Shown here: positions 1-42,912 of the stretch, one piece after another
Position numbering within the stretch: position 1 is the first letter of the stretch
How the letters are laid out: each line of letters begins with the position of its first letter
NCBI GenBank assembly: GCA_040954595.2
Contig: CM082577.2
Coordinates: 15,383,903-15,447,902 of the forward strand
DNA length: 64,000 bases
Source: Balanoglossus misakiensis
Lineage: Eukaryota; Animalia; Hemichordata
Reading direction: 5' to 3'
Made by a program: the position numbers and the translations under genes
The notes under the pieces: model-generated
Database searches by the model: none
Told to the model about the DNA's origin: nothing
Seen by the model: the letters and a program-made list of their open reading frames with translations, nothing else

Positions 1-2964
1 TTCATTCATGCGAGTGAGTGTAATTGCAAATTTGCCTATTCTAGATCTGTAATGGAAATGGAGAAAGTACCTTATATTTTCTGTAAAATAGACATTTAAT
101 TGGCAAGCCGTCCTGCATCAATTATGAATTGTGTACATGCACTAAAGCGCCCTCACTGCTGGGTGTGTTGTATGGTCTTTAACCCTGTTTCAAATTAGAG
201 TACTTTCTGCAATTTCAAGACAGATCTTACGTGCCATTGGAGAGCTCCATTGACTGGTCATTCATACTGTTTTCATTCATTCATTGCGGCATCAATATAT
301 TTTATCTATTCTAGCCAAAGAGCTTGGCACCTGTTGAAATGAACTCATCTGCTGTGGGCCAGTTTATTGGTGGCAGTTGAGCTGAGAAGAGCACCTTCCT
401 TCCCGGCACGCCACCAAGTAAAGTTCCACGCCGCCCACCACAGATGCCAGCATTCATTCATGCGAGTGAGTGTAATTGCAAATTTGCCTATTCTAGATCT
501 GTAATGGAAATGGAGAAAGTACCTTATATTTTCTGTAAAATAGACATTTAATTGGCAAGCCGTCCTGCATCAATTATGAATTGTGTACATGCACTAAAGC
601 GCCCTCACTGCTGGGTGTGTTGTATGGTCTTTAACCCTGTTTCAAATTAGAGTACTTTCTGCAATTTCAAGACAGATCTTACGTGCCATTGGAGAGCTCC
701 ATTGACTGGTCATTCATACTGTTTTCATTCATTCATTGCGGCATCAATATATTTTATCTATTCTAGCCAAAGAGCTTGGCACCTGTTGAAATGAACTCAT
801 CTGCTGTGGGCCAGTTTATTGGTGGCAGTTGAGCTGAGCAGAGCACCTTCCTTCCCGGCACGCCACCAAGTAAAGTTCCACGCCGCCCACCACAGATGCC
901 AGCATTCATTCATGCGAGTGAGTGTAATTGCAAATTTGCCTATTCTAGATCTGTAATGGAAATGGAGAAAGTACCTTATATTTTCTGTAAAATAGACATT
1001 TAATTGGCAAGCCGTCCTGCATCAATTATGAATTGTGTACATGCACTAAAGCGCCCTCACTGCTGGGTGTGTTGTATGGTCTTTAACCCTGTTTCAAATT
1101 AGAGTACTTTCTGCAATTTCAAGACAGATCTTACGTGCCATTGGAGAGCTCCATTGACTGGTCATTCATACTGTTTTCATTCATTCATTGCGGCATCAAT
1201 ATATTTTATCTATTCTAGCCAAAGAGCTTGGCACCTGTTGAAATGAACTCATCTGCTGTGGGCCAGTTTATTGGTGGCAGTTGAGCTGAGAAGAGCACCT
1301 TCCTTCCCGGCACGCCACCAAGTAAAGTTCCACGCCGCCCACCACAGATGCCAGCATTCATTCATGCGAGTGAGTGTAATTGCAAATTTGCCTATTCTAG
1401 ATCTGTAATGGAAATGGAGAAAGTACCTTATATTTTCTGTAAAATAGACATTTAATTGGCAAGCCGTCCTGCATCAATTATGAATTGTGTACATGCACTA
1501 AAGCGCCCTCACTGCTGGGTGTGTTGTATGGTCTTTAACCCTGTTTCAAATTAGAGTACTTTCTGCAATTTCAAGACAGATCTTACGTGCCATTGGAGAG
1601 CTCCATTGACTGGTCATTCATACTGTTTTCATTCATTCATTGCGGCATCAATATATTTTATCTATTCTAGCCAAAGAGCTTGGCACCTGTTGAAATGAAC
1701 TCATCTGCTGTGGGCCAGTTTATTGGTGGCAGTTGAGCTGAGCAGAGCACCTTCCTTCCCGGCACGCCACCAAGTAAAGTTCCACGCCGCCCACCACAGA
1801 TGCCAGCATTCATTCATGCGAGTGAGTGTAATTGCAAATTTGCCTATTCTAGATCTGTAATGGAAATGGAGAAAGTACCTTATATTTTCTGTAAAATAGA
1901 CATTTAATTGGCAAGCCGTCCTGCATCAATTATGAATTGTGTACATGCACTAAAGCGCCCTCACTGCTGGGTGTGTTGTATGGTCTTTAACCCTGTTTCA
2001 AATTAGAGTACTTTCTGCAATTTCAAGACAGATCTTACGTGCCATTGGAGAGCTCCATTGACTGGTCATTCATACTGTTTTCATTCATTCATTGCGGCAT
2101 CAATATATTTTATCTATTCTAGCCAAAGAGCTTGGCACCTGTTGAAATGAACTCATCTGCTGTGGGCCAGTTTATTGGTGGCAGTTGAGCTGAGAAGAGC
2201 ACCTTCCTTCCCGGCACGCCACCAAGTAAAGTTCCACGCCGCCCACCACAGATGCCAGCATTCATTCATGCGAGTGAGTGTAATTGCAAATTTGCCTATT
2301 CTAGATCTGTAATGGAAATGGAGAAAGTACCTTATATTTTCTGTAAAATAGACATTTAATTGGCAAGCCGTCCTGCATCAATTATGAATTGTGTACATGC
2401 ACTAAAGCGCCCTCACTGCTGGGTGTGTTGTATGGTCTTTAACCCTGTTTCAAATTAGAGTACTTTCTGCAATTTCAAGACAGATCTTACGTGCCATTGG
2501 AGAGCTCCATTGACTGGTCATTCATACTGTTTTCATTCATTCATTGCGGCATCAATATATTTTATCTATTCTAGCCAAAGAGCTTGGCACCTGTTGAAAT
2601 GAACTCATCTGCTGTGGGCCAGTTTATTGGTGGCAGTTGAGCTGAGCAGAGCACCTTCCTTCCCGGCACGCCACCAAGTAAAGTTCCACGCCGCCCACCA
2701 CAGATGCCAGCATTCATTCATGCGAGTGAGTGTAATTGCAAATTTGCCTATTCTAGAATCTTACGTGCCATTGGAGAGCTCCATTGACTGGTCATTCATA
2801 CTGTTTTCATTCATTCATTGCGGCATCAATATATTTTATCTATTCTAGCCAAAGAGCTTGGCACCTGTTGAAATGAACTCATCTGCTGTGGGCCAGTTTA
2901 TTGGTGGCAGTTGAGCTGAGGAGAGCACCTTCCTTCCCGGCACGCCACCAAGTAAAGTTCCACG
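1..2964 (+). repeat. Satellite array 1: 452-bp monomers (one 274-bp monomer near the end) with a 904-bp dimeric higher-order repeat
   Basis: Near-exact 452-bp periodicity. Private variant attatGaatt. Successive monomers alternate ctgagAagag / ctgagCagag. The array ends at agtaaagttccacg|tgcattcc (2964/2965). Confidence 0.97.
47..223. mobile_element. 177-bp MITE-like unit with 24-bp imperfect TIRs, present in every 452-bp monomer (representative copy)
   Basis: Left end ctgtaatggaaatggagaaagtac versus reverse complement of right end ctgtcttgaaattgcagaaagtac gives 19/24 identity. Flanked by AT on both sides within palindromic agatct, so a 2-, 4- or 6-bp TSD reading is formally possible. Absent from the short monomers. 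Confidence 0.8.
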
Positions 2965-4754
2965 TGCATTCCTGGCCCTGGTTTTATTTATGTTTACAGA
3001 CAATATTGCATTTTTGTACAAGTATTTTAATCAACTATAAATTTTGAATGTGTCATTTACCTGAACCGGTCATGTTGACCAGAATGATACATTTCTGCCT
3101 TCACTCACCCTATAAATATGTGATTGAGACATAGGTCATTTGCATAAGCTAACATACCAGAAAGTAAGCATATCTGTTGTTTTCCCTGTGTCACTGCCAT
3201 CAAAGTAAAAATTAGACGTTGTGTAGAGCAAACTCCAATTTTTTGTTCTCAATAAACATGGATGAATTACATAGAATGTGTTTGTTGTTTACAGTCTTTA
3301 AATGACACATTAGATTATGCACTTTACAAAACGTTTCTGAGAAACAAGTGACTAACTAGTTTCTTTCCACTGTGGCCAACGTGGTTCACTGTTTGTGTCA
3401 GAATCTCTCTGTTTTGCAAGGATTTTGAAATCATAGTGGTGACATGCATAGTGAAAATCAGCTACTTTCAAATGTCCGTCATGTTCATGCTGTAATTGAA
3501 TTTTCAAAGCTGGGCTGGCGTGTTTTTTCTTATTTACATAAGTATCACACTTTATACATGTATCTTCATGGGGTTTTCTGAGTCCCGTATTTAGGTCCTC
3601 TCTCACAATTTTACGAAATATCGTATAACTGACAGTTGTTCTTCCCAGAAGAGATTGGTTGGTTATGAACTCTCGGTGTAACTGCGATATACTGTGGTCC
3701 GGCGCCAGGTACGGTTTAAATCGAGGATTCCTGCAGTAGTGAGATTCTACAATTCTGTGCCTGCGTACGTGTTCAGTGATATCAGTCAGCAAATTTGGAT
3801 TGAGTTTCCGACGATGCCCTTTGTGTCGGCCCCTTGCATCTGGCATCAGACCAGTAAAGTTCCATGTGCATTCCTGGCCCTGGTTTTATTTATGTTTACA
3901 GACAATATTGCATTTTTGTACAAGTATTTTAATCAACTATAAATTTTGAATGTGTCATTTACCTGAACCGGTCATGTTGACCAGAATGATACATTTCTGC
4001 CTTCACTCACCCTATAAATATGTGATTGAGACATAGGTCATTTGCATAAGCTAACATACCAGAAAGTAAGCATATCTGATGTTTTCCCTGTGTCACTGCC
4101 ATCAAAGTAAAAATTAGACGTTGTGTAGAGCAAACTCCAATTTTTTGTTCTCAATAAACATGGATGAATTACATAGAATGTGTTTGTTGTTTACAGTCTT
4201 TAAATGACACATTAGATTATGCACTTTACAAAACGTTTCTGAGAAACAAGTGACTAACTAGTTTCTTTCCACTGTGGCCAACGTGGTTCACTGTTTGTGT
4301 CAGAATCTCTCTGTTTTGCAAGGATTTTGAAATCATAGTGGTGACATGCATAGTGAAAATCAGCTACTTTCAAATGTCCGTCATGTTCATGCTGTAATTG
4401 AATTTTCAAAGCTGGGCTGGCGTGTTTTTTCTTATTTACATAAGTATCACACTTTATACATGTATCTTCATGGGGTTTTCTGAGTCCCGTATTTAGGTCC
4501 TCTCTCACAATTTTACGAAATATCGTATAACTGACAGTTGTTCTTCCCAGAAGAGATTGGTTGGTTATGAACTCTCGGTGTAACTGCGATATACTGTGGT
4601 CCGGCGCCAGGTACGGTTTAAATCGAGGATTCCTGCAGTAGTGAGATTCTACAATTCTGTGCCTGCGTACGTGTTCAGTGATATCAGTCAGCAAATTTGG
4701 ATTGAGTTTCCGACGATGCCCTTTGTGTCGGCCCCTTGCATCTGGCATCAGACC
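2951..4754. repeat. 902-bp tandem duplication (2951-3852 / 3853-4754) of the 3' part and 3' UTR of the transposase N-half gene
   Basis: Near-identical units offset by 902 bp. Junction catcagacc|agtaaagttcc has AGT microhomology to the native catcagacc|agttgaac. Confidence 0.95.
3352..3846 (-). pseudogene. 5'-truncated duplicate (164 aa) of the transposase N-half gene
   Basis: Identical to the last 164 aa of the 4254-5216 ORF. Produced by the 902-bp duplication and retains an in-frame ATG (MPDARGRH). Confidence 0.85.
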
Positions 4755-5216
4755 AGTTGAACAGTGCATCATTTTGCTTAGAACGGTTCTAGTCCGCCTC
4801 TCACTAATGCCAAATAATTTCAGGAATGCATTTTTGCAGACAGTAACCGTTTCACCGCCTTCATTCACCAGGTGATAACGAACCGATTTCTTGTGTGACT
4901 TCATCTGTATATCCATCAGTTTGTAGAGCATCAAGTTCTGTTCATTATACACGCGACCATCAAAATATTTTCTCGTGGTGCCTAAAACATGCGTACTCCC
5001 AAGCTTCCGCAGACAATTCCCTTGAACGCAGGCGCATTCCAAGGAAAGACTGTCAATATCTGGAAAAGGGCGATTTTTCCTTGGTTTTTGTCTCGGACAC
5101 GTCTTTTTAGAATTCCTACGTGGCTTGTTGGCTCGAGCTGACAGTTCGGTTCTGCGTTGCTGCCACACAGGAAGGGGTTCCCACGCATAAGCAACTCCCC
5201 GGCAGGCCATGGTCAC
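4254..5216 (-). CDS. Sola1-like transposase, N-terminal Cys/His-rich DNA-binding half (320 aa)
   Basis: Motif series CxC...C, VCKNAFLKLFGIS, DARGRH, HVRRHRIVESHYCR...YL, SYTIFRKIV...N...KPHEDTCIKC, H..H. I recognise this as the region that normally precedes the catalytic core in Sola1-type (DUF7869-containing) transposases. AATAAA on the - strand at 3885-3890. Confidence 0.8.
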   Translation of the reverse strand: MTMACRGVAYAWEPLPVWQQRRTELSARANKPRRNSKKTCPRQKPRKNRPFPDIDSLSLECACVQGNCLRKLGSTHVLGTTRKYFDGRVYNEQNLMLYKLMDIQMKSHKKSVRYHLVNEGGETVTVCKNAFLKLFGISERRTRTVLSKMMHCSTGLMPDARGRHKGHRRKLNPNLLTDITEHVRRHRIVESHYCRNPRFKPYLAPDHSISQLHREFITNQSLLGRTTVSYTIFRKIVREDLNTGLRKPHEDTCIKCDTYVNKKKHASPALKIQLQHEHDGHLKVADFHYACHHYDFKILAKQRDSDTNSEPRWPQWKETS

Positions 5217-5257
5217 AGCTGAAGTATTTGTTCAAGTACTGACTGACTAAACGCGGC

Positions 5258-6391
5258 ATGGAACAAACGAACGAACGACTTCACGTTCGGAAAAAAAATC
5301 GTTGCGAGCTGTTGGGTGCATGCCTCTATAGTTGTCGGCAACCGTTCTTTTTTATTGCTAAACAATGCTGTCAGAGCATGGAAGGTGTGGTGGAAAACGA
5401 ACAGAGGTTTTGTACGACCAACGATTGGATGGTGCTACATATGGACTTCCACAAGTCATTGCCGGTTCCTAAACTCAGCTCTGAAGACTTTTACTTTAAA
5501 TCGAAATTGCAAATGAAGCTCCTTGGAATTTACAACGGGACAACGGAAAAGATGCATTGTTATGTATGGACAGAGCTCGATAGCAGAAAGTCTCCCGATG
5601 AAGTTATTACCTGTCTAAATCACTTTTTTTATAACTCGGGTGTGACCAGCAGACATGCAGTTATTTACAGCGACAACTGCCGTGCCGAATTCAAGTGTGG
5701 GAAGTTAATGTTTTACTATGACTATCTGTTACGAAAGGGCGTGTTTCGACGAATTGACTATAAAACTCTTGTGGCTGGACACACGTACTCCACCTGTGAC
5801 CGAGTTTTTGCGTCCATTGAAAGGCATGCAAGTCGTTTCCAGAGTATAGAGACACCTCACGATTGGACATCTGTGATTCGAGGATCTTCTCTGAATGGGA
5901 ACATTGGAGTTACGGAGATGACTCACAGAGACTTTTTCAATTATTCTGATTTCCTGAAAAATGAGTACGTTGTGCGTTATGCAGATACAAACAATGTAAC
6001 TTTTTACTACCAAGCCATGCACTATTTTAATTTTGGAGAAGGAGAAAGGCTTGATACCGACGGCAACCTCAGAACATTTAGTCATGCAGATAAAGTTTGG
6101 GTGAGAACATCTCTAGATCCAAGCGAGACCCCGATTGTAGTCGACTTTAGAAAGAAGAAGCAGAACCGGCGTTTACAAGATTGTACGCTGAACAAACTTT
6201 ATCAGGAACGTCGACCACTGGCGAGCAAAGTTTGGCGGGATCTTCAGAGTTTAGCCAAAAATTACCTGTCTCCGGAGGCAATAGAATTTTATAGGAATCT
6301 ACCGCTTCAGGAGAGTAGTGGCACCTCTGCAGACCCGTACGCCTTTCATGATGATGACGACGACGATGATGATGATATGGGCGGTGGTTGA
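5258..6391 (+). CDS. Sola1-like transposase, catalytic DDD/E (RNase H-fold) half; 377 aa, or 337 aa from ATG 5378
   Basis: Motifs MDFHKSLPVPKL..FYFKSKL, CYVWTE...KSPDEVITCL, IYSDNC, LVAGHTYSTCDRVFASIE, and C-terminal LY..RRPL..K.RDL. Three candidate catalytic Asp residues are intact. Acidic poly-D tail. Confidence 0.85.
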   Translation: MEQTNERLHVRKKNRCELLGACLYSCRQPFFFIAKQCCQSMEGVVENEQRFCTTNDWMVLHMDFHKSLPVPKLSSEDFYFKSKLQMKLLGIYNGTTEKMHCYVWTELDSRKSPDEVITCLNHFFYNSGVTSRHAVIYSDNCRAEFKCGKLMFYYDYLLRKGVFRRIDYKTLVAGHTYSTCDRVFASIERHASRFQSIETPHDWTSVIRGSSLNGNIGVTEMTHRDFFNYSDFLKNEYVVRYADTNNVTFYYQAMHYFNFGEGERLDTDGNLRTFSHADKVWVRTSLDPSETPIVVDFRKKKQNRRLQDCTLNKLYQERRPLASKVWRDLQSLAKNYLSPEAIEFYRNLPLQESSGTSADPYAFHDDDDDDDDDMGGG

Positions 6392-6552
6392 ACAAACTGT
6401 CCTTTTCATGACGACAGTGATTTTGGATATTTGATGTGCGTGCACAGTTTATATGTAATATTTTCACACGAACGAGTTTTGACTGAATTTGATTAAAGAA
6501 TGTACTCGATAATTAACAAATGTGCTGAATCGTGGTTATTATGTTGTTAATT

Positions 6553-6592
6553 TTTGTTTGTTTGTTTGTTTGTTTGTTTGTTTGTTTGTTTG
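6553..6592 (+). repeat. (TTTG)10 microsatellite
   Basis: Read directly. Also present at 38348-38387. Confidence 0.95.
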
Positions 6593-6789
6593 TAAACAAT
6601 TTCCGTTCATTCAACTGGCTACAAAGTTGGATTTTTGTACTGGGAAGCGATAAACTCGCACATCAAAACCGGGGAGACTCGATCATTTTTCCCTGCAGGT
6701 AGCCTGAAAAGCACCCGGGCAGAGATTACGTCATATATGGTCCACTTTAATACGAAATTATGCAAATGTGACATTTCACGGAAACGGCG

Positions 6790-6798
6790 TATATAAAA
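6790..6798 (+). promoter_or_regulatory. TATA box of the wHTH-SET gene
   Basis: TATATAAAA in a GC-flanked context about 100 bp upstream of ATG 6891. Confidence 0.6.
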
Positions 6799-6890
6799 GC
6801 GACCCTGGGCTATTGTTCGGAATGCGTCATCGACGAGAGAGTGACTGATAATTCTTCTACCTCGAGTCAACCATTCTGTATATACTGAAC

Positions 6891-8230
6891 ATGGCTAGCT
6901 GGCGCAGGAAGAGACAAGGCAATGTGCGGTCTGTAATCAACGAACGGCACCGCTCAGTTCAGTGTCCCTTTCTTCAAAAGTGGATCGGTGAGCAATTGGT
7001 ATTTTCAGGTCGTTCAGAGGATGAAGTCCAGTCCAGTACTGTATTTGAGAGCTACAAATGTTGGGTTGAAAACTATTCGTCGGCGGACAATCAAGTAATG
7101 ATTATGGTTACTAAAGCTCGATTTTTCAAGGTGAGAATGATCGCATTTTTCTTTCCCCCCCCCCCTCCCTCCCTCCCTCCCTCCCCCAAGGGACTCGTTT
7201 TCTGTCTCTTTTAAACCTGTAACTTAACGAAAAGGAAGTTTTTCACATATCTCTTCGTTGACACTATAGCAATTTGGAGCGCGGATGCTTCAAGAGAAGA
7301 GCGTTACCAAATCAAAGTCGGCCGGGGTTAATATTTATAGAGGTGTTCGTCTGAAAGCTGGTTCGCGAAGAATCTCAACGGGGAAACCTGAGCACAGTGT
7401 ACTTCAGACCAGGGCAAGGGCATTTCTTGATGACGCCAGCGTGACCGTTCCGATCGAGGTAAGAATGGTGTTTTGTTTGGACTAGGACAATAGAACGTTG
7501 CAATGAGTGTGTCAATGGGTGTCCAAGTGCAAACGTGGTCTGCTTCTGTCCACAAATGCCATTAATTTTTGGCAGGATTTATAAAATTGTCAATGAAGAA
7601 TACAAAAATGAAAAACAACAGTTAATAGCAAACTGGTAGGATTGCAAGGGCTTGTAAAACGGTACACACTGTACCAGGAAGTTTGCAACACTAATGAAGA
7701 ATGTATATGATATATTTAGGTGAGAACTGTTCGCGATCGCCGGGACGCAGGACGGTGCGCGTTTTCGACGAGGGATATTCAAGCCTGGGACGTCGTCTGC
7801 GAATACCGGGGCACGGTTATTAGCGTTGAAGAAGCTAGTCGGCGTGATGAGCTTTACAGGGCAGAGGGGAAACGACCACGCATGTTCCATCTCTACATTG
7901 GAAAGAGACACGTTGTGTGAGTGTATCACTTAGTCGAATATATGGTCATATATTGCAAAGCATCTGTCGAAATAGAAAACGTAATATTGTCTATATTTTC
8001 CTCATTAACGCAGCATTGACGGATACGATGTCCCAGCCGGTGAAGAAAATTTAGCAGGCCTAATAAATCACAGTCAGCAGAACGCCAACTTGGTACCGGT
8101 TCGGATCGGAGAGCGCCTGGTTTTCTTTGCAACCAGGAATCTTTGTCAGGGAGTAGAGCTTTTGTATGATTACGGTGACGGGGGTGAAGAGGATTTCTTC
8201 AGTGGTTCTCAAACTTTTCCTGAAAATTAA
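6891..8230 (+). CDS. Spliced gene, 280 aa: winged-helix-like N-terminal domain plus SETD8/PR-Set7-like lysine methyltransferase. Exons 6891-7130, 7270-7458, 7720-7916, 8014-8230
   Basis: Three GT-AG introns (aag|gtgaga..tatag, gag|gtaaga..tttag, gt|gtgagt..cgcag; phases 0, 0, 2) give an 843-nt open frame. SET motifs: GRCAFSTRDI..WDVVCEYRG, IDG, GLINHS, FATRNL..GVELLYDYGD. N-terminal region FLQKWIGEQL..VQSSTVFESYKCW..FFKQF..GVNIYRGVRLK resembles a D5-primase C-terminal or RFX-type winged helix. Confidence 0.88.
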
Positions 8231-9138
8231 GGCATTAACACATCAACGCTTCGGGGTGTCGTAACGGCGGCGCGGCGGGGGGGGGGGGGGGGGGACGTGA
8301 AAATGTTTGTATCAGGAACAAAATTCCCGTGCAAATCACCTTGATCCGGGTGGGTGGACTATTCGCGACAAATGTTGAAATCATACAAAGCATTTTACTT
8401 AATTAACCCATTTTTTTCATTTATTTGTTTACAGTTTACAACGTCATAGAGAAGTTGAACTAGAGACTGGATCAGCGTGGGTGACACCATAGTACACCAA
8501 TGTTTTCTTCAGTTTGATTCAATTGTAATTTAAAACTGAGATTGCCTAACGCTTTCCCAGATTTTTTTAACCACTGAGAAACTGTGGGTTTTTTTCTGGG
8601 TTTTGGTGCGAGGTGATCTCAGTCAGTGGTGTTAATTTAATTAATCATTTTCTTTTCCTATTTACGTCGACTGAAATGTATTTTGATAGGTGATAGTCAT
8701 ACCATAAAAAAAATCTTACGGCGCGACTGCCAAAATGTACATTTATTTGTCCGTTCCAAGTTATTTTGTGTATGTGTGATGGGTGCCGGTGACTGTGCAG
8801 GGTTGATTTCCCTAGAGCGACTGTTATATTCGTTTTCCAACGATGATGAATTTACATGTTATTTGCTTGGCATTTTGACGCAGAGACACTTCTGAAAACA
8901 CAAACCTATTAATTATGCCACGGGTGTAAATTGATCACATTAAAAGAGGCTTTAGACGTTTGCCGCGAGCTCCTGGTGGGCAGAATCTTGTCAGCCCAAA
9001 TTTGACTATAAGTACATAGCCAATGATGTGACGCTCTCCCACATCCTTCGCCGCGCCTTTTCGCTGATTTACAGCATCTTGCGTAAACACTGTCATTTGA
9101 TCTTGCTTGGCAGAAGTCAACTTGCTCTATACTACATT

Positions 9139-9504
9139 ATGGCGGCCAAGCTCAACTGCATATCAGATAATGCCAAGGAGCGTTTGAGAGGCATCCTCGC
9201 CAGAAGGAGTCGCGTTTCCGGTGACTGTGTGCTCTGGACGGGTGCAGCTTGTCGAAACGGCTATGGCTCTATTACGTTCAGAGATGAGAACACTCTAACC
9301 GCCTATGTCCATCACATTGCACTCCTAATTAACGGAGTGCAATTGGTGGGCAGGCGGTTAGAGTGTTCTCATCTTTGCAACGAAAAGCTATGCATCCGCC
9401 CAGAGCACATTGTCCAGGAAACGCGACTCCTAAACATTTCACGAAAGACGTGCTTTAAATCCCCAAAAGGGGAGTGTCACCACGATCCCAGGTGCCTAAG
9501 GTGA
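9139..9504 (+). CDS. His-Me finger endonuclease (zinc-binding loop of homing endonuclease / His-Cys box-like), 121 aa
   Basis: Motifs CVLWTG...GYG, YVHH, ECSHLCNEKLCIRPEHIVQE...N.SRKTC...C.H.PRC match the zf-His_Me_endon pattern. First ATG is at 9139 (attATGG). Confidence 0.85.
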   Translation: MAAKLNCISDNAKERLRGILARRSRVSGDCVLWTGAACRNGYGSITFRDENTLTAYVHHIALLINGVQLVGRRLECSHLCNEKLCIRPEHIVQETRLLNISRKTCFKSPKGECHHDPRCLR

Positions 9505-9789
9505 GTAATCCTCTTCTCATTTGATATGTATTGTGTGACCCTGCAGTTGAAACGCTTTCATCAATAATTTGCGGCGCGTGGGTAATCTCGGTGTTATTGA
9601 CAATGCAGCCGGCCCAAACATTTTTAAATTAACACTGTTTCTGACTGTATTAACGAAATGTCCAATTTGCAAGTAGCCTATAGACAACCCTTTTGAATGA
9701 GTTTTGTCTCGTTGAGATTTTATACATAAGGAACAATCTAGATTTATTTTAGAAGACACTGTTCTTTTAAAACAGCTAGCATAATACAG

Positions 9790-10156
9790 CTAAATTTCGG
9801 AATTTCCGGACAATTTTCGGAATTCCTTTTAAATTTGAGAAATTTTTCATCAGATATAAGTGTTACTATTTATTGGACATGTTTTTATCATTGTTTACTT
9901 TTTAAGGTCATTCTCACCCCCCCCCCCAAAAAAAGCCGCTTTAGGCTTCATGTTCAGTAAAAAATCTGGAAAGTTCAGCTGAATTTTACACTGATCACAC
10001 ATTTTTGGGAAGGTCTGGCGCAAAATAAAGGATGACAAATGTAAATCTAATGTCACATTTGTAAACCTCTAAGTATTGTACACTCATTCTATTAAGTATA
10101 TGCAAATAGTACGGATAATTTTTTCGGAATGTGGAATTCCGAAATTAGTTCGGAAC
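9790..10156. repeat. Clustered TTCGGAA motifs forming an imperfect inverted-repeat pair about 330 bp apart
   Basis: ctaaatttcggaatttcc and aattttcggaattcc (9790-9826) versus ggaattccgaaattag (10133-10148). Confidence 0.5.
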
Positions 10157-10480
10157 GTGTTAGCAGTGAAGAGATCACCACTGAGGGTTGGAAGGCCTTG
10201 CCAGAAATTAACGCGTAAAGTACGCCCTCACAGGCCATGTAAACAAGGTCAAATAAGGCCGTCTGGCAAACGAATGATTAATTCAACGCGCCATTTGAGC
10301 CGAGCTGAGTTGGTCTGAGTTGCGTATCACACAGACTTAGGCTGAATGTCAGTGGAGTAACCAGTCCGTTTTAGATTTACCAATGATGTGAATTTAATTT
10401 CTTCACCCAGAAAAACAGAACACAACTTGTCTGCAACATGATGCTGGAGGTGACACATGACAGAGAAGTGGATCCGCGTT

Positions 10481-10818
10481 GTCAACACAGATGCCAGCAT
10501 TCAAAAGGGGAGTGCCACCTGCTAAAATCAACTCATCTGCTGTTGGCCCATTTTACCTGTGGCAACTGTTCAGAGGAGACAACGTTTATTCCGTGCAAGC
10601 CAACACGCAATGTTGGGGTCTACCTGTCAACACAGATGCAAGCATTCATGTGAGTGAGTATCAGGACTGACCTTGTATTTGCTGAATAATTCATAATGCC
10701 TATTTTAGAATTCTTAGAGGCATTTGGAGTTCATTGCCTGGTCAACCAAACTACACCCCTTAACAGCTGAAACAAAATGCGTATTGTGTTCATTCATTCA
10801 TTGCATCAATATATATAG
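10481..10818 (+). repeat. Diverged copy of the short satellite monomer inside the cassette
   Basis: Collinear matches: cacctg.t.aaat.aactcatctgctgt.ggcc, cacagatgc.agcattcat, gagtgagt, gcctatt.tagaattctta, cattg.ctggtca, ttcattcattcattgcatcaatatat. Confidence 0.85.
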
Positions 10819-11121
10819 GCAACATGAGTATCAAGTAGCACTATTTGTTTACGATTGTATTCATGAAAACTTCCCACTAACAATTCCACAGTTAATATTG
10901 AACACATTTATCCAACAAGGTCAAAAGAAAAAGGGAATCTTCTGGTTCCAAAATACGCCACAAATGTGGGTCAACATACAGTGAAATATTATGGTGCTCA
11001 AATATGCAACATATCAAATCTGTCTCATCAAAGTCATGCTTTAAAAAAGAATTGAAAAGGTATTATTTATCCATTTGACTGCTGTATTTTCAGAAGGAAA
11101 ACAAACTGAATTTGGTTTTTC

Positions 11122-34759: not shown

Positions 34760-36549
34760 TGCATTCCTGGCCCTGGTTTTATTTATGTTTACAGACAATA
34801 TTGCATTTTTGTACAAGTATTTTAATCAACTATAAATTTTGAATGTGTCATTTACCTGAACCGGTCATGTTGACCAGAATGATACATTTCTGCCTTCACT
34901 CACCCTATAAATATGTGATTGAGACATAGGTCATTTGCATAAGCTAACATACCAGAAAGTAAGCATATCTGTTGTTTTCCCTGTGTCACTGCCATCAAAG
35001 TAAAAATTAGACGTTGTGTAGAGCAAACTCCAATTTTTTGTTCTCAATAAACATGGATGAATTACATAGAATGTGTTTGTTGTTTACAGTCTTTAAATGA
35101 CACATTAGATTATGCACTTTACAAAACGTTTCTGAGAAACAAGTGACTAACTAGTTTCTTTCCACTGTGGCCAACGTGGTTCACTGTTTGTGTCAGAATC
35201 TCTCTGTTTTGCAAGGATTTTGAAATCATAGTGGTGACATGCATAGTGAAAATCAGCTACTTTCAAATGTCCGTCATGTTCATGCTGTAATTGAATTTTC
35301 AAAGCTGGGCTGGCGTGTTTTTTCTTATTTACATAAGTATCACACTTTATACATGTATCTTCATGGGGTTTTTTGAGTCCCGTATTTAGGTCCTCTCTCA
35401 CAATTTTACGAAATATCGTATAACTGACAGTTGTTCTTCCCAGAAGAGATTGGTTGGTTATGAACTCTCGGTGTAACTGCGATATACTGTGGGCCGGCGC
35501 CAGGTACGGTTTAAATCGAGGATTCCTGCAGTAGTGAGATTCTACAATTCTGTGCCTGCGTACGTGTTCAGTGATATCAGTCAGCAAATTTGGATTGAGT
35601 TTCCGACGATGCCCTTTGTGTCGGCCCCTTGCATCTGGCATCAGACCAGTAAAGTTCCATGTGCATTCCTGGCCCTGGTTTTATTTATGTTTACAGACAA
35701 TATTGCATTTTTGTACAAGTATTTTAATCAACTATAAATTTTGAATGTGTCATTTACCTGAACCGGTCATGTTGACCAGAATGATACATTTCTGCCTTCA
35801 CTCACCCTATAAATATGTGATTGAGACATAGGTCATTTGCATAAGCTAACATACCAGAAAGTAAGCATATCTGATGTTTTCCCTGTGTCACTGCCATCAA
35901 AGTAAAAATTAGACGTTGTGTAGAGCAAACTCCAATTTTTTGTTCTCAATAAACATGGATGAATTACATAGAATGTGTTTGTTGTTTACAGTCTTTAAAT
36001 GACACATTAGATTATGCACTTTACAAAACGTTTCTGAGAAACAAGTGACTAACTAGTTTCTTTCCACTGTGGCCAACGTGGTTCACTGTTTGTGTCAGAA
36101 TCTCTCTGTTTTGCAAGGATTTTGAAATCATAGTGGTGACATGCATAGTGAAAATCAGCTACTTTCAAATGTCCGTCATGTTCATGCTGTAATTGAATTT
36201 TCAAAGCTGGGCTGGCGTGTTTTTTCTTATTTACATAAGTATCACACTTTATACATGTATCTTCATGGGGTTTTCTGAGTCCCGTATTTAGGTCCTCTCT
36301 CACAATTTTACGAAATATCGTATAACTGACAGTTGTTCTTCCCAGAAGAGATTGGTTGGTTATGAACTCTCGGTGTAACTGCGATATACTGTGGTCCGGT
36401 GCCAGGTACGGTTTAAATCGAGGATTCCTGCAGTAGTGAGATTCTACAATTCTGTGCCTGCGTACGTGTTCAGTGATATCAGTCAGCAAATTTGGATTGA
36501 GTTTCCGACGATGCCCTTTGTGTCGGCCCCTTGCATCTGGCATCAGACC
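34746..36549. repeat. 902-bp tandem duplication, copy 2
   Basis: Same as 2951-4754, offset 31,795. Confidence 0.95.
35147..35641 (-). pseudogene. 5'-truncated duplicate of the transposase N-half gene, copy 2
   Basis: 164 aa with two substitutions (APAH, LKKP) relative to copy 1. Confidence 0.85.
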
Positions 36550-37011
36550 AGTTGAACAGTGCATCATTTTGCTTAGAACGGTTCTAGTCCGCCTCTCACT
36601 AATGCCAAATAATTTCAGGAATGCATTTTTGCAGACAGTAACCGTTTCACCGCCTTCATTCACCAGGTGATAACGAACCGATTTCTTGTGTGACTTCATC
36701 TGCATATCCATCAGTTTGTAGAGCATCAAGTTCTGTTCATTATACACGCGACCATCAAAATATTTTCTCGTGGTGCCTAAAACATGCGTACTCCCAAGCT
36801 TCCGCATACAATTCCCTTGAACGCAGGCGCATTCCAAGGAAAGACTGTCAATATCTGGAAAAGGGCGATTTTTCCTTGGTTTTTGTCTCGGACACGTCTT
36901 TTTAGAATTCCTACGTGGCTTGTTGGCTCGAGCTGACAGTTCGGTTCTGCGTTGCTGCCACACAGGAATGGGTTCCCACGCATAAGCAACTCCCCGGCAG
37001 GCCATGGTCAC
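36049..37011 (-). CDS. Sola1-like transposase N-terminal half, copy 2 (320 aa)
   Basis: Intact. Three conservative changes relative to copy 1 (L>I, L>M, I>M). Confidence 0.8.
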   Translation of the reverse strand: MTMACRGVAYAWEPIPVWQQRRTELSARANKPRRNSKKTCPRQKPRKNRPFPDIDSLSLECACVQGNCMRKLGSTHVLGTTRKYFDGRVYNEQNLMLYKLMDMQMKSHKKSVRYHLVNEGGETVTVCKNAFLKLFGISERRTRTVLSKMMHCSTGLMPDARGRHKGHRRKLNPNLLTDITEHVRRHRIVESHYCRNPRFKPYLAPDHSISQLHREFITNQSLLGRTTVSYTIFRKIVREDLNTGLRKPHEDTCIKCDTYVNKKKHASPALKIQLQHEHDGHLKVADFHYACHHYDFKILAKQRDSDTNSEPRWPQWKETS

Positions 37012-37052
37012 AGCTGAAGTATTTGTTCAAGTACTGACTGACTAAACGCGGC

Positions 37053-38186
37053 ATGGAACAAACGAACGAACGACTTCACGTTCGGAAAAAAAATCGTTGC
37101 GAGCTGTTGGGTGCATGCCTCTATAGTTGTCGGCAACCGTTCTTTTTTATTGCTAAACAATGCTGTCAGAGCATGGAAGGTGTGGTGGAAAACGAACAGA
37201 GGTTTTGTACGACCAACGATTGGATGGTGCTACATATGGACTTCCACAAGTCATTGCCGGTTCCTAAACTCAGCTCTGAAGACTTTTACTTTAAATCGAA
37301 ATTGCAAATGAAGCTCCTTGGAATTTACAACGGGACAACGGAAAAGATGCATTGTTATGTATGGACAGAGCTCGATAGCAGAAAGTCTCCCGATGAAGTT
37401 ATTACCTGTCTAAATCACTTTTTTTATAACTCGGGTGTGACCAGCAGACATGCAGTTATTTACAGCGACAACTGCCGTGCCGAATTCAAGTGTGGGAAGT
37501 TAATGTTTTACTATGACTATCTGTTACGAAAGGGCGTGTTTCGACGAATTGACTATAAAACTCTTGTGGCTGGACACACGTACTCCACCTGTGACCGAGT
37601 TTTTGCGTCCATTGAAAGGCATGCAAGTCGTTTCCAGAGTATAGAGACACCTCACGATTGGACATCTGTGATTCGAGGATCTTCTCTGAATGGGAACATT
37701 GGAGTTACGGAGATGACTCACAGAGACTTTTTCAATTATTCTGATTTCCTGAAAAATGAGTACGTTGTGCGTTATGCAGATACAAACAATGTAACTTTTT
37801 ACTACCAAGCCATGCACTATTTTAATTTTGGAGAAGGAGAAAGGCTTGATACCGACGGCAACCTCAGAACATTTAGTCATGCAGATAAAGTTTGGGTGAG
37901 AACATCTCTAGATCCAAGCGAGACCCCGATTGTAGTCGACTTTAGAAAGAAGAAGCAGAACCGGCGTTTACAAGATTGTACGCTGAACAAACTTTATCAG
38001 GAACGTCGACCACTGGCGAGCAAAGTTTGGCGGGATCTTCAGAGTTTAGCCAAAAATTACCTGTCTCCGGAGGCAATAGAATTTTATAGGAATCTACCGC
38101 TTCAGGAGAGTAGTGGCACCTCTGCAGACCCGTACGCCTTTCATGATGATGACGACGACGATGATGATGATATGGGCGGTGGTTGA
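37053..38186 (+). CDS. Sola1-like transposase catalytic half, copy 2
   Basis: Protein identical to copy 1. Confidence 0.85.
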   Translation: MEQTNERLHVRKKNRCELLGACLYSCRQPFFFIAKQCCQSMEGVVENEQRFCTTNDWMVLHMDFHKSLPVPKLSSEDFYFKSKLQMKLLGIYNGTTEKMHCYVWTELDSRKSPDEVITCLNHFFYNSGVTSRHAVIYSDNCRAEFKCGKLMFYYDYLLRKGVFRRIDYKTLVAGHTYSTCDRVFASIERHASRFQSIETPHDWTSVIRGSSLNGNIGVTEMTHRDFFNYSDFLKNEYVVRYADTNNVTFYYQAMHYFNFGEGERLDTDGNLRTFSHADKVWVRTSLDPSETPIVVDFRKKKQNRRLQDCTLNKLYQERRPLASKVWRDLQSLAKNYLSPEAIEFYRNLPLQESSGTSADPYAFHDDDDDDDDDMGGG

Positions 38187-38584
38187 ATAAACTGTCCTTT
38201 TCATGACGACAGTGATTTTGGATATTTGATGTGCGTGCACAGTTTATATGTAATATTTTCACACGAACGAGTTTTGACTGAATTTGATTAAAGAATGTAC
38301 TCGATAATTAACAAATGTGCTGAATCGTGGTTATTATGTTGTTAATTTTTGTTTGTTTGTTTGTTTGTTTGTTTGTTTGTTTGTTTGTAAACAATTTCCG
38401 TTCATTCAACTGGCTACAAAGTTGGATTTTTGTACTGGGAAGCGATAAACTCGCACATCAAAACCGGGGAGACTCGATCATTTTTCCCTGCAGGTAGCCT
38501 GAAAAGCACCCGGGCAGAGATTACGTCATATATGGTCCACTTTAATACGAAATTATGCAAATGTGACATTTCACGGAAACGGCG

Positions 38585-38593
38585 TATATAAAA
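38585..38593 (+). promoter_or_regulatory. TATA box, copy 2
   Basis: TATATAAAA upstream of ATG 38686. Confidence 0.6.
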
Positions 38594-38685
38594 GCGACCC
38601 TGGGCTATTGTTCGGAATGCGTCATCGACGAGAGAGTGACTGATAATTCTTCTACCTCGAGTCAACCATTCTGTATATACTGAAC

Positions 38686-40023
38686 ATGGCTAGCTGGCGC
38701 AGGAAGAGACAAGGCAATGTGCGGTCTGTAATCAACGAACGGCACCGCTCAGTTCAGTGTCCCTTTCTTCAAAAGTGGATCGGTGAGCAATTGGTATTTT
38801 CAGGTCGTTCAGAGGATGAAGTCCAGTCCAGTACTGTATTTGAGAGCTACAAATGTTGGGTTGAAAACTATTCGTCGGCGGACAATCAAGTAATGATTAT
38901 GGTTACTAAAGCTCGATTTTTCAAGGTGAGAATGATCGCATTTTTCTTTCCCCCCCCCCCCCTCCCTCCCTCCCTCCCCCAAGGGACTCGTTTTCTGTCT
39001 CTTTTAAACCTGTAACTTAACGAAAAGGAAGTTTTTCACATATCTCTTCGTTGACACTATAGCAATTTGGAGCGCGGATGCTTCAAGAGAAGAGCGTTAC
39101 CAAATCAAAGTCGGCCGGGGTTAATATTTATAGAGGTGTTCGTCTGAAAGCTGGTTCGCGAAGAATCTCAACGGGGAAACCTGAGCACAGTGTACTTCAG
39201 ACCAGGGCAAGGGCATTTCTTGATGACGCCAGCGTGACCGTTCCGATCGAGGTAAGAATGGTGTTTTGTTTGGACTAGGACAATAGAACGTTGCAATGAG
39301 TGTGTCAATGGGTGTCCAAGTGCAAACGTGGTCTGCTTCTGTCCACAAATGCCATTAATTTTTGGCAGGATTTATAAAATTGTCAATGAAGAATACAAAA
39401 ATGAAAAACAACAGTTAATAGCAAACTGGTAGGATTGCAAGGGCTTGTAAAACGGTACACACTGTACCAGGAAGTTTGCAACACTAATGAAGAATGTATA
39501 TGATATATTTAGGTGAGAACTGTTCGCGATCGCCGGGACGCAGGACGGTGCGCGTTTTCGACGAGGGATATTCAAGCCTGGGACGTCGTCTGCGAATACC
39601 GGGGCACGGTTATTAGCGTTGAAGAAGCTAGTCGGCGTGATGAGCTTTACAGGGCAGAGGGGAAACGACCACGCATGTTCCATCTCTACATTGGAAAGAG
39701 ACACGTTGTGTGAGTGTATCACTTAGTCGAATATATGGTCATATATTGCAAAGCATCTGTCGAAATAGAAAACGTAATATTGTCTATATTTTCCTCATTA
39801 ACGCAGCATTGACGGATACGATGTCCCAGCCGGTGAAGAAAATTTAGCAGGCCTAATAAATCACAGTCAGCAGAACGCCAACTTGGTACCGGTTCGGATC
39901 GGAGAGCGCCTGGTTTTCTTTGCAACCAGGAATCTTTGTCAGGGAGTAGAGCTTTTGTATGATTACGGTGACGGGGGTGAAGAGGATTTCTTCAGTGGTT
40001 CTCAAACTTTTCCTGAAAATTAA
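38686..40023 (+). CDS. wHTH-SETD8-like methyltransferase, copy 2. Exons 38686-38925, 39063-39251, 39513-39709, 39807-40023
   Basis: Same splice sites and frame as copy 1. The only length difference (2 bp) falls in the C-rich tract of intron 1, as expected if the intron call is right. Confidence 0.88.
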
Positions 40024-40926
40024 GGCATTAACACATCAACGCTTCGGGGTGTCGTAACGGCGGCGCGGCGGGGGGGGGGGGGACGTGAAAATGTTTGTAT
40101 CAGGAACAAAATTCCCGTGCAAATCACCTTGATCCGGGTGGGTGGACTATTCGCGACAAATGTTGAAATCATACAAAGCATTTTACTTAATTAACCCATT
40201 TTTTTCATTTATTTGTTTACAGTTTACAACGTCATAGAGAAGTTGAACTAGAGACTGGATCAGCGTGGGTGACACCATAGTACACCAATGTTTTCTTCAG
40301 TTTGATTCAATTGTAATTTAAAACTGAGATTGCCTAACGCTTTCCCAGATTTTTTTAACCACTGAGAAACTGTGGGTTTTTTTCTGGGTTTTGGTGCGAG
40401 GTGATCTCAGTCAGTGGTGTTAATTTAATTAATCATTTTCTTTTCCTATTTACGTCGACTGAAATGTATTTTGATAGGTGATAGTCATACCATAAAAAAA
40501 ATCTTACGGCGCGACTGCCAAAATGTACATTTATTTGTCCGTTCCAAGTTATTTTGTGTATGTGTGATGGGTGCCGGTGACTGTGCAGGGTTGATTTCCC
40601 TAGAGCGACTGTTATATTCGTTTTCCAACGATGATGAATTTACATGTTATTTGCTTGGCATTTTGACGCAGAGACACTTCTGAAAACACAAACCTATTAA
40701 TTATGCCACGGGTGTAAATTGATCACATTAAAAGAGGCTTTAGACGTTTGCCGCGAGCTCCTGGTGGGCAGAATCTTGTCAGCCCAAATTTGACTATAAG
40801 TACATAGCCAATGATGTGACGCTCTCCCACATCCTTCGCCGCGCCTTTTCGCTGATTTACAGCATCTTGCGTAAACACTGTCATTTGATCTTGCTTGGCA
40901 GAAGTCAACTTGCTCTATACTACATT

Positions 40927-41292
40927 ATGGCGGCCAAGCTCAACTGCATATCAGATAATGCCAAGGAGCGTTTGAGAGGCATCCTCGCCAGAAGGAGTCG
41001 CGTTTCCGGTGACTGTGTGCTCTGGACGGGTGCAGCTTGTCGAAACGGCTATGGCTCTATTACGTTCAGAGATGAGAACACTCTAACCGCCTATGTCCAT
41101 CACATTGCACTCCTAATTAACGGAGTGCAATTGGTGGGCAGGCGGTTAGAGTGTTCTCATCTTTGCAACGAAAAGCTATGCATCCGCCCAGAGCACATTG
41201 TCCAGGAAACGCGACTCCTAAACATTTCACGAAAGACGTGCTTTAAATCCCCAAAAGGGGAGTGTCACCACGATCCCAGGTGCCTAAGGTGA
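40927..41292 (+). CDS. His-Me finger endonuclease, copy 2
   Basis: Protein identical to copy 1. Confidence 0.85.
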   Translation: MAAKLNCISDNAKERLRGILARRSRVSGDCVLWTGAACRNGYGSITFRDENTLTAYVHHIALLINGVQLVGRRLECSHLCNEKLCIRPEHIVQETRLLNISRKTCFKSPKGECHHDPRCLR

Positions 41293-42271
41293 GTAATCCT
41301 CTTCTCATTTGATATGTATTGTGTGACCCTGCAGTTGAAACGCTTTCATCAATAATTTGCGGCGCGTGGGTAATCTCGGTGTTATTGACAATGCAGCCGG
41401 CCCAAACATTTTTAAATTAACACTGTTTCTGACTGTATTAACGAAATGTCCAATTTGCAAGTAGCCTATAGACAACCCTTTTGAATGAGTTTTGTCTCGT
41501 TGAGATTTTATACATAAGGAACAATCTAGATTTATTTTAGAAGACACTGTTCTTTTAAAACAGCTAGCATAATACAGCTAAATTTCGGAATTTCCGGACA
41601 ATTTTCGGAATTCCTTTTAAATTTGAGAAATTTTTCATCAGATATAAGTGTTACTATTTATTGGACATGTTTTTATCATTGTTTACTTTTTAAGGTCATT
41701 CTCACCCCCCCCCCCCCCAAAAAAAGCCGCTTTAGGCTTCATGTTCAGTAAAAAATCTGGAAAGTTCAGCTGAATTTTACACTGATCACACATTTTTGGG
41801 AAGGTCTGGCGCAAAATAAAGGATGACAAATGTAAATCTAATGTCACATTTGTAAACCTCTAAGTATTGTACACTCATTCTATTAAGTATATGCAAATAG
41901 TACGGATAATTTTTTCGGAATGTGGAATTCCGAAATTAGTTCGGAACGTGTTAGCAGTGAAGAGATCACCACTGAGGGTTGGAAGGCCTTGCCAGAAATT
42001 AACGCGTAAAGTACGCCCTCACAGGCCATGTAAACAAGGTCAAATAAGGCCGTCTGGCAAACGAATGATTAATTCAACGCGCCATTTGAGCCGAGCTGAG
42101 TTGGTCTGAGTTGCGTATCACACAGACTTAGGCTGAATGTCAGTGGAGTAACCAGTCCGTTTTAGATTTACCAATGATGTGAATTTAATTTCTTCACCCA
42201 GAAAAACAGAACACAACTTGTCTGCAACATGATGCTGGAGGTGACACATGACAGAGAAGTGGATCCGCGTT

Positions 42272-42609
42272 GTCAACACAGATGCCAGCATTCAAAAGGG
42301 GAGTGCCACCTGCTAAAATCAACTCATCTGCTGTTGGCCCATTTTACCTGTGGCAACTGTTCAGAGGAGACAACGTTTATTCCGTGCAAGCCAACACGCA
42401 ATGTTGGGGTCTACCTGTCAACACAGATGCAAGCATTCATGTGAGTGAGTATCAGGACTGACCTTGTATTTGCTGAATAATTCATAATGCCTATTTTAGA
42501 ATTCTTAGAGGCATTTGGAGTTCATTGCCTGGTCAACCAAACTACACCCCTTAACAGCTGAAACAAAATGCGTATTGTGTTCATTCATTCATTGCATCAA
42601 TATATATAG
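42272..42609 (+). repeat. Diverged satellite monomer inside cassette copy 2
   Basis: Same as 10481-10818. Confidence 0.85.
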
Positions 42610-42912
42610 GCAACATGAGTATCAAGTAGCACTATTTGTTTACGATTGTATTCATGAAAACTTCCCACTAACAATTCCACAGTTAATATTGAACACATTT
42701 ATCCAACAAGGTCAAAAGAAAAAGGGAATCTTCTGGTTCCAAAATACGCCACAAATGTGGGTCAACATACAGTGAAATATTATGGTGCTCAAATATGCAA
42801 CATATCAAATCTGTCTCATCAAAGTCATGCTTTAAAAAAGAATTGAAAAGGTATTATTTATCCATTTGACTGCTGTATTTTCAGAAGGAAAACAAACTGA
42901 ATTTGGTTTTTC

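What the first reader, a model, noticed from the sequence alone, without database searches (positions are those of the whole stretch)
4254..6391. Transposase split at the domain boundary into two head-to-head genes
Seen: the N-half (- strand) and catalytic half (+ strand) start 41 bp apart (161 bp if ATG 5378 is used). Both are uninterrupted in both copies, each has its own ATG and stop, and the N-half has a downstream AATAAA. From recall, Sola1-type transposases have these two regions contiguous in one polypeptide. The break lies just after the CxxC..H..H region and just before the first catalytic Asp, with nothing obviously missing. Inference: a two-subunit transposase driven by a bidirectional promoter, rather than a dead inversion.
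Basis: partly seen in the sequence, partly recalled or inferred. Interest (0 to 1): 0.8.

Follow-up and report, generated by a model that had tools for sequence, protein, structure and literature searches.

The report
Ancient transposase split into two genes
A jumping-gene enzyme that is normally one protein is encoded here, and in relatives from corals, a sea anemone and an acorn worm, as two separate genes cut at the same point, which likely reassemble into one working enzyme; the back-to-back layout seen here is only one of several arrangements.

Summary
The split is real and old; the head-to-head layout is not the conserved part. Two intact ORFs (4254-5210 minus, 318 aa; 5378-6391 plus, 337 aa; ATGs 167 bp apart, or 47 bp, not 41/161) tile a profile of 46 single-chain DUF7869 (Sola1-like) transposases with nothing missing. 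The closest relatives are split at the same place. Stand-alone N-halves (30-40% identity, shared C-terminal motif) and catalytic halves (44-52%, same start, three Asp kept) each form a clade with no fused member. Named hosts are Saccoglossus, Oculina and Actinostola. That refutes a recent dead inversion. Layout varies: locus L001 is head-to-tail, and L002 has no catalytic half in 3.9 kb upstream. A bidirectional promoter is therefore local at most, and untested. The two window copies are one duplicated 8.2-kb cassette (with SET and His-Me nuclease genes) in a satellite array, without TIRs or TSD. Binding, transcription and transposition are not shown. The scan noted the same kind of split twice before on other DNA (e1-7769614, e1-9997055). 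My literature searches found no description.

The parts
4254..5210 (-). N-half gene, 318 aa: Cys cluster (C59/C61/C66/C125), predicted helix-turn-helix-like region (161-246), DxCxxC..H motif, long terminal helix (266-303), short unstructured tail
   Evidence: (pLDDT 83.6)
5211..5377 (.). 167-bp spacer between the divergent ATGs, the putative shared promoter (untested). CpG o/e 1.31, no TATA match. An upstream in-frame ATG lies at 5258; a 4-nt deletion allele at 5317 breaks that longer frame only
5378..6391 (+). Catalytic-half gene, 337 aa, DUF7869 (PF25273, E 1.3e-14), D23/D99/D141 triad, RNase H-like core
2951..3855 (-). 902-bp tandem duplication of the 3' part of the N-half gene and its 3' flank (promoterless 164-aa ORF at 3352-3846)
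3885..3890 (-). AATAAA, 363 nt downstream of the N-half stop
6891..8230 (+). Spliced SET-domain gene (exons 6891-7130, 7270-7458, 7720-7916, 8014-8230; 280 aa), same cassette
9139..9504 (+). His-Me finger (His-Cys box) nuclease gene, 121 aa, PF05551 E 2e-13, same cassette
2965..11121 (.). Whole 8.2-kb cassette set in a 452/274-bp satellite array; its right part (10483-10814) holds a 70%-identical copy of the satellite unit; no TIR or TSD found
34760..42912 (.). Second copy of the cassette, 31,795 bp downstream, 99.8% identical, same junctions (N-half 36049-37005, C-half 37053/37173-38186)

Best explanation
The two ORFs are the front and back parts of a DUF7869 (Sola1-like) DDD transposase that was split into two genes long ago in one animal transposon lineage, and the two proteins likely reassemble into one enzyme. 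Shown: the fission point, a new stop and tail on the N-half, a new start on the catalytic half, and conservation of both halves across distant hosts. Predicted: the N-half folds alone and is the DNA-end-binding, zinc-binding subunit; the C-half is the RNase H-like cutting subunit. Inferred: the covalent link (terminal helix running into the first core strand) is replaced by a protein interface, perhaps built from motifs found only in the split clade. Once separated, the genes could be rearranged (head-to-head here, head-to-tail in L001), so the divergent layout with a probable shared 167-bp promoter is a local arrangement. In this window the pair has multiplied by tandem duplication of a roughly 32-kb satellite-plus-cassette unit, not by visible cut-and-paste.
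For: Tiling: 8 complete N-halves and L001's partial one align up to profile positions 294-301; 4 of 4 C-halves begin at 303-304. The top 6 of 150 listed N-half hits are 306-347 aa, 34-40% identical, match nearly end to end, and stand above a score gap (123 to 94 bits). All 3 catalytic-half relatives found (P0001, P0002, L001) start M-x-x-F-C at the same position. Trees: split N-halves 8 of 8 on one branch, 100/100, against 46 fused proteins; split C-halves 4 of 4, 100/100. A 149-row tree gives a 15-row clade (SH-aLRT 90) with 0 of 15 fused. Clade-only motifs: RxNR-type in 10 of 10 split against 0 of 46 fused; FCxxxD and GxGER in 4 of 4 against 0 of 46. Window against L001: amino-acid identity 36% (80 codons) and 46% (316 codons), third codon positions only 35-36% identical. 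Three Asp kept in 4 of 4. L001 has the halves 42 nt apart with two in-frame stops between them. The best N-half hit and best C-half hit both come from a 2400-bp Logan contig (same contig is inferred from the equal length). The N-half model has pLDDT 83.6.
Against: No TIRs or TSD at the cassette; the two copies share junctions, so there is no sign of transposition. The Gln four residues after the second Asp (44 of 46 fused proteins) is lost in 4 of 4 split catalytic halves, so activity may have changed. Layout differs in the two relatives whose DNA I could read (L001, L002), and L002 shows no partner at all (contig ends inside the N-half tail). 19 of 150 hits outside the clade also end near the junction by chance truncation, so an end there is not proof by itself. 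For most relatives I saw proteins only, not their DNA. The split sets were picked by similarity to the query, which favours monophyly. The 4 coding differences between the window copies all fall in the N-half (3 non-synonymous), too few to test. The C-half model is poor (pLDDT 38).
Confidence: 0.66

Rival explanations
1. The split pair is old and conserved but no longer moves its own ends: it is a domesticated or passenger nuclease module in a larger repeat (with the SET and His-Me genes) that spreads by unequal crossover in the satellite array.
For: No TIR/TSD. Identical junctions in both copies. A second nuclease and a chromatin enzyme lie in the cassette. The DxCxxQ motif is changed in 4 of 4 split halves. 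KolobokP is a published case of nuclease-linked tandem multimers (PMC9587614, parts 1, 2, 4 of 6 read).
Against: Layout and neighbours vary between loci (no His-Me hit in L001 or L002), which suits a mobile lineage better than a fixed host gene pair. All three Asp are kept. The true ends of a very long element may lie outside the window.
Confidence: 0.24
2. The halves are joined at the RNA level (cis-splicing in head-to-tail relatives, trans-splicing here), so the protein is one ordinary chain.
For: In L001 a weak phase-0 GT at 232 and an AG at 315 could join the frames. In-frame AGs lie before the window's C-half start.
Against: The window's halves are on opposite strands. The L001 candidate donor fits the consensus poorly and would remove the conserved [YF]D..[VIL]L[AS] stretch. 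No phase-0 donor lies in the window's N-half tail before the stop. Tails (P..W in 5 of 10) and the start Met are conserved as protein features.
Confidence: 0.05
3. A recent one-off inversion broke an ordinary single-ORF transposase; the ORFs are open only because the event is young.
For: All copies seen are nearly identical, so openness within this genome proves little. 97 of 150 N-half hits run through the junction.
Against: Every close relative is split at the same point and no fused protein falls inside the clade. The flanks hold no left-over coding sequence of the other half. Only the orientation, not the split, could be recent.
Confidence: 0.03

Closest known systems
Single-chain DUF7869 (PF25273) transposases, i.e. 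Sola1-type DDD transposases (the Sola1 label for these proteins is recalled; the tools gave DUF7869 only)
   Same: Both halves align along one profile of 46 fused proteins, with DxCxxC..H, the D-D-D triad and the C-terminal region.
   Different: Two genes instead of one ORF (630 aa in a bee Sola1, PMC3845634 passages); clade-only motifs; Gln after the second Asp lost; no TIR or AWWT/AWDT duplication found here.
PIF/Harbinger transposons (transposase plus Myb/SANT-like protein; PMC9179366 passages)
   Same: Works like it, by inference: DNA binding and catalysis sit in two proteins that must meet.
   Different: The Harbinger partner is a separate protein family; here the partner is the homologous front half of the same ancestral chain, and has no Myb/SANT Pfam match.
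KolobokP (PMC9587614; parts 1, 2, 4 of 6 read)
   Same: DDD/E transposase plus small His-Me finger nuclease in an internal region, ~450-bp flanking direct repeats, tandem multimers.
   Different: Transposase here is DUF7869-type and split; about 63 repeat units lie between cassettes rather than one shared LTDR; inverted repeats bound a 178-bp piece inside the unit, not the unit; a SET gene is present.

Membership tests
Sola1 | DDD catalytic triad in an RNase H-like core | tested here: met
   D23, D99, D141 invariant or nearly so in 54 rows, kept in 4 of 4 split halves; a low-confidence model matches integrase/transposase cores, best Z 7.7, rmsd 4.4, 133 aligned.
Sola1 | Sequence similarity to curated Sola1 transposases | not testable with these tools
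   No Repbase or Sola1 profile is held; Bao 2009 and Yuan and Wessler 2011 were not found by the ids I tried. Only DUF7869 was matched.
Sola1 | One transposase ORF carrying N-terminal and catalytic regions | tested here: not met
   Two ORFs on opposite strands.
Sola1 | Terminal inverted repeats | tested here: inconclusive
   None between the cassette ends (two chance 11-mers); true ends may lie outside the window.
Sola1 | AWWT/AWDT 4-bp target duplication (PMC3845634 passage) | tested here: inconclusive
   None at the satellite junctions 2964/2965 and 11121/11122, which may not be element ends.
KolobokP | His-Me finger nuclease beside the transposase | tested here: met
   PF05551 E 2e-13 at 9139-9504.
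KolobokP | ~450 or ~660-bp terminal direct repeats with their own end TIRs (5'-RR..YY-3') | tested here: not met
   The 452-bp unit is a long satellite; the inverted repeat bounds an internal 178-bp piece starting CTGT.
KolobokP | Kolobok-type transposase | not tested
   No Kolobok profile was run; the enzyme here matches DUF7869.
PIF/Harbinger | Second ORF with a Myb/SANT domain unrelated to the transposase chain | tested here: not met
   No Pfam match for the N-half; it is homologous to the N-terminus of fused DUF7869 proteins.

The most novel reading that the evidence does not exclude
An undescribed, active lineage of animal cut-and-paste transposons, spread from cnidarians to deuterostomes, whose transposase is an obligate two-subunit enzyme made by ancient fission, with freely rearranged genes; in this genome it rides with a His-Me nuclease and a SET gene in a giant tandem unit and excises the 178-bp TIR element from the surrounding satellite.
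Probability: 0.3. Interest if true: 0.8.

Novelty: new variant of a known kind. Interest (0 to 1): 0.62.

Why it matters
Known two-protein eukaryotic transposons pair the transposase with a different protein. A lineage in which one ancestral chain was cut between its DNA-binding and catalytic parts, and kept so across phyla, is a natural split transposase. It marks a tolerated cut site, lets targeting and cutting be regulated or swapped separately, and makes testable how a two-subunit recombinase can arise. It would also explain 'uncharacterized' ~310-aa genes in coral, anemone and acorn-worm annotations that single-ORF transposon screens would file as fragments.

Tried and rejected
Word-index search with the N-half found nothing; the full HMMER search did. 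A search for longer forms of the catalytic half found none among 3336 candidates (weak evidence, and fused distant forms do exist). Locus scans without result: viral contigs, first metagenome scan (22), first genome scan (81). No RNA holder was listed; that is no evidence on expression. Runs X3/X4 (organism B) matched only short pieces at depth about 2 and repeats, so not counted. No strand-changing joint was among the joints shown (15 of 17 shown); contigs cannot show absence. The complex prediction and the protein atlas were not available, so there is no verdict on binding. No whole genome is held. PDB sequence searches gave no match under E 0.3. Foldseek gave no match for the N-half model; VIA-align gave only middling scores, best Z 6.8 (rmsd 2.9, 69 aligned, residues 161-246) to a chain of a TnsABCD transpososome, and Z 5.5 to the TnsB N-terminal region; residues 1-160 were barely tested. 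ATG 5258 was rejected as the likely start: relatives start near 5378 and a deletion allele breaks only the longer frame. 'Intact in both copies' was rejected as evidence of selection. P0013 was dropped as a split member (a cluster sibling runs on). P0049 is cut by its contig end; its siblings P0162 and P0166 end 14 residues after the motif. The 178-bp element does not fit a 4-bp AWDT duplication. Literature: 'DUF7869' 0 papers; 'split transposase' + eukaryot + transposon 1 off-topic paper; searches listed nothing describing a split Sola (listings only, except the papers cited). Repbase Reports and subscription journals were not searched.

Full report
Observation. The window is eukaryotic repeat DNA: a 452/274-bp satellite interrupted twice by the same 8.2-kb cassette, at 2965-11121 and 34760-42912. 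The N-half ATG is at 5210, so the gaps are 47 and 167 nt, not 41 and 161. The copies are 99.8% identical and share junctions and a 902-bp duplication of the N-half's 3' part. They are one event, not two witnesses. Their 4 coding differences all lie in the N-half: L13I, L67M, I101M and one silent.

What the halves are. The plus-strand ORF matches DUF7869 (E 1.3e-14); the minus-strand ORF has no Pfam match. A full HMMER search with the N-half found 2595 proteins at E up to 0.001 and listed 150. Of these, 97 run through the junction into the catalytic domain, 28 end near it and 25 end earlier. I built a profile from 46 proteins that carry both regions with a long C-terminus. N-halves reach positions 294-301 and catalytic halves start at 303-304, so the two window ORFs together cover the ancestral chain. 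That these fused proteins are Sola1 transposases is my recall; the defining papers were not held. A passage of PMC3845634 gives the Sola1 hallmarks as an AWWT/AWDT target duplication and shows one 630-aa ORF.

The split is conserved. The word-index search returned 2 relatives of the catalytic half among 418 candidates: a 311-aa Logan protein (51%) and Saccoglossus LOC100368598 (306 aa, 47%). Both start M-x-x-F-C just before the first Asp, as does the catalytic half of locus L001. A later NCBI model of the Saccoglossus gene adds 38 residues unlike any N-half. The six best N-half hits are 306-347 aa long, match almost end to end, and stop a few residues after a shared [YF]D..[VIL][LT][AS] motif. 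That motif lies within the last 45 residues in 8 of 150 hits, all in the clade. Named carriers are Oculina patagonica and Actinostola. Trees put 8 of 8 N-halves and 4 of 4 catalytic halves each on one branch at 100/100 against the 46 fused proteins (the bootstrap in 85 had not fully settled). With 149 of 151 rows (2 dropped for short overlap) the clade has 15 members at SH-aLRT 90 and none is fused; 5 of the 15 are shorter fragments. Two cautions: the sets were chosen by similarity to the query, and 19 hits outside the clade also stop near the junction, one of them demonstrably truncated. The argument therefore rests on motifs, tails, starts and phylogeny together.

Both halves are maintained. 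Window against L001: 36% and 46% amino-acid identity with third codon positions at 35-36% (protein-guided alignment, so this is indicative, not a dN/dS). D23, D99 and D141 are kept in 4 of 4 split halves. The split clade has its own motifs on both halves and has lost a Gln present in 44 of 46 fused proteins.

The layout is not conserved. L001 (metagenome contig) has the N-half stop at 307-309, a second in-frame stop, an ATG at 352 on the same strand and one GT-AG intron in the catalytic gene. L002, filed in a bacterial bin but probably animal host DNA (inferred from low gene density), has an N-half with no catalytic half in 3.9 kb upstream. The best N and C hits both come from a 2400-bp contig, probably the same one, orientation unknown. 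Earlier scan notes report a head-to-head coral family and a convergent case; I could not check their DNA. So fission came first and orientation is free. Here, 167 nt between two ATGs in good Kozak context make a shared promoter plausible. ATG 5378 is the likelier start: relatives start there, and a 4-nt deletion at 5317, seen in runs X1 and X2 (one sample, possibly the window's own source), breaks only the 5258 frame.

Mechanism. The N-half folds confidently alone (pLDDT 83.6, pTM 0.59, 65 sequences), ending in a helix at 266-303 and a loose tail. Its residues 161-246 resemble helix-turn-helix DNA-binding domains only at middling Z. The catalytic half was folded from 3 sequences and is poor (pLDDT 38), but its best matches are integrase and transposase cores. 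I infer a DNA-binding subunit and a cutting subunit that reassemble, as the two proteins of Harbinger do (PMC9179366 passages). Binding, transcription and activity are untested. My odds: old conserved split about 0.93; halves act together about 0.8; still a transposase about 0.66.

Context. The cassette also holds an intact spliced SET gene and a His-Me nuclease gene. I found no TIRs or TSD. In run X1 the cassette is covered by long uniform contigs at depth about 660-810 and the duplicated part at 1565, against tens of thousands over the satellite; this hints at several near-identical copies sharing the duplication, but depth is not a copy number. Spread here looks like tandem amplification, loosely like KolobokP multimers (PMC9587614, parts 1, 2 and 4 read). 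This keeps the domesticated-or-passenger rival alive.

Verdict. A real, lineage-wide fission of a DUF7869 transposase, not found in my literature searches (Repbase not searchable). New variant of a known kind; interest 0.62.

Noticed in passing
window 47-223 and 67 full 452-bp units of the satellite: The 452-bp unit is a 274-bp unit plus a 178-bp piece with 24-bp imperfect inverted ends (CTGT...ACAG) flanked by AT. Units lacking it come in four junction forms (38 and 5 of 274 bp, 6 of 275 bp, 11 of 265 bp), like excision footprints; the 275-bp form has both flanking bases complemented (hairpin-type footprint, recalled) but also matches the diverged copy in the cassette.
   Followed up: partly
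window 11299-34571 and 43090-64000: The order of long and short satellite units repeats in blocks of about 17-20 units (6-7 kb), a higher-order repeat under the 31.8-kb cassette period.
   Followed up: partly
window 6891-8230: Intact four-exon gene: an N-terminal region that looks like an RFX/D5-type winged helix (by eye and recall; Pfam gave no such match) fused to a SET domain; more diverged SET copies exist in the same runs.
   Followed up: partly
window 9139-9504: The His-Me nuclease gene has a 26-bp inverted repeat (9279-9304 / 9352-9377) within a 227-bp imperfect palindrome inside its coding region.
   Followed up: no
window 10483-10814: Diverged (70%) copy of the satellite unit; run X2 holds a related repeat that continues into a sequence like the cassette's left junction, so related elements may exist elsewhere in the genome.
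   Followed up: partly
L002 1-4965: A contig filed in a bacterial metagenome bin carries a split-clade N-half closest to coral proteins and little else; probably host DNA mis-binned.
   Followed up: partly
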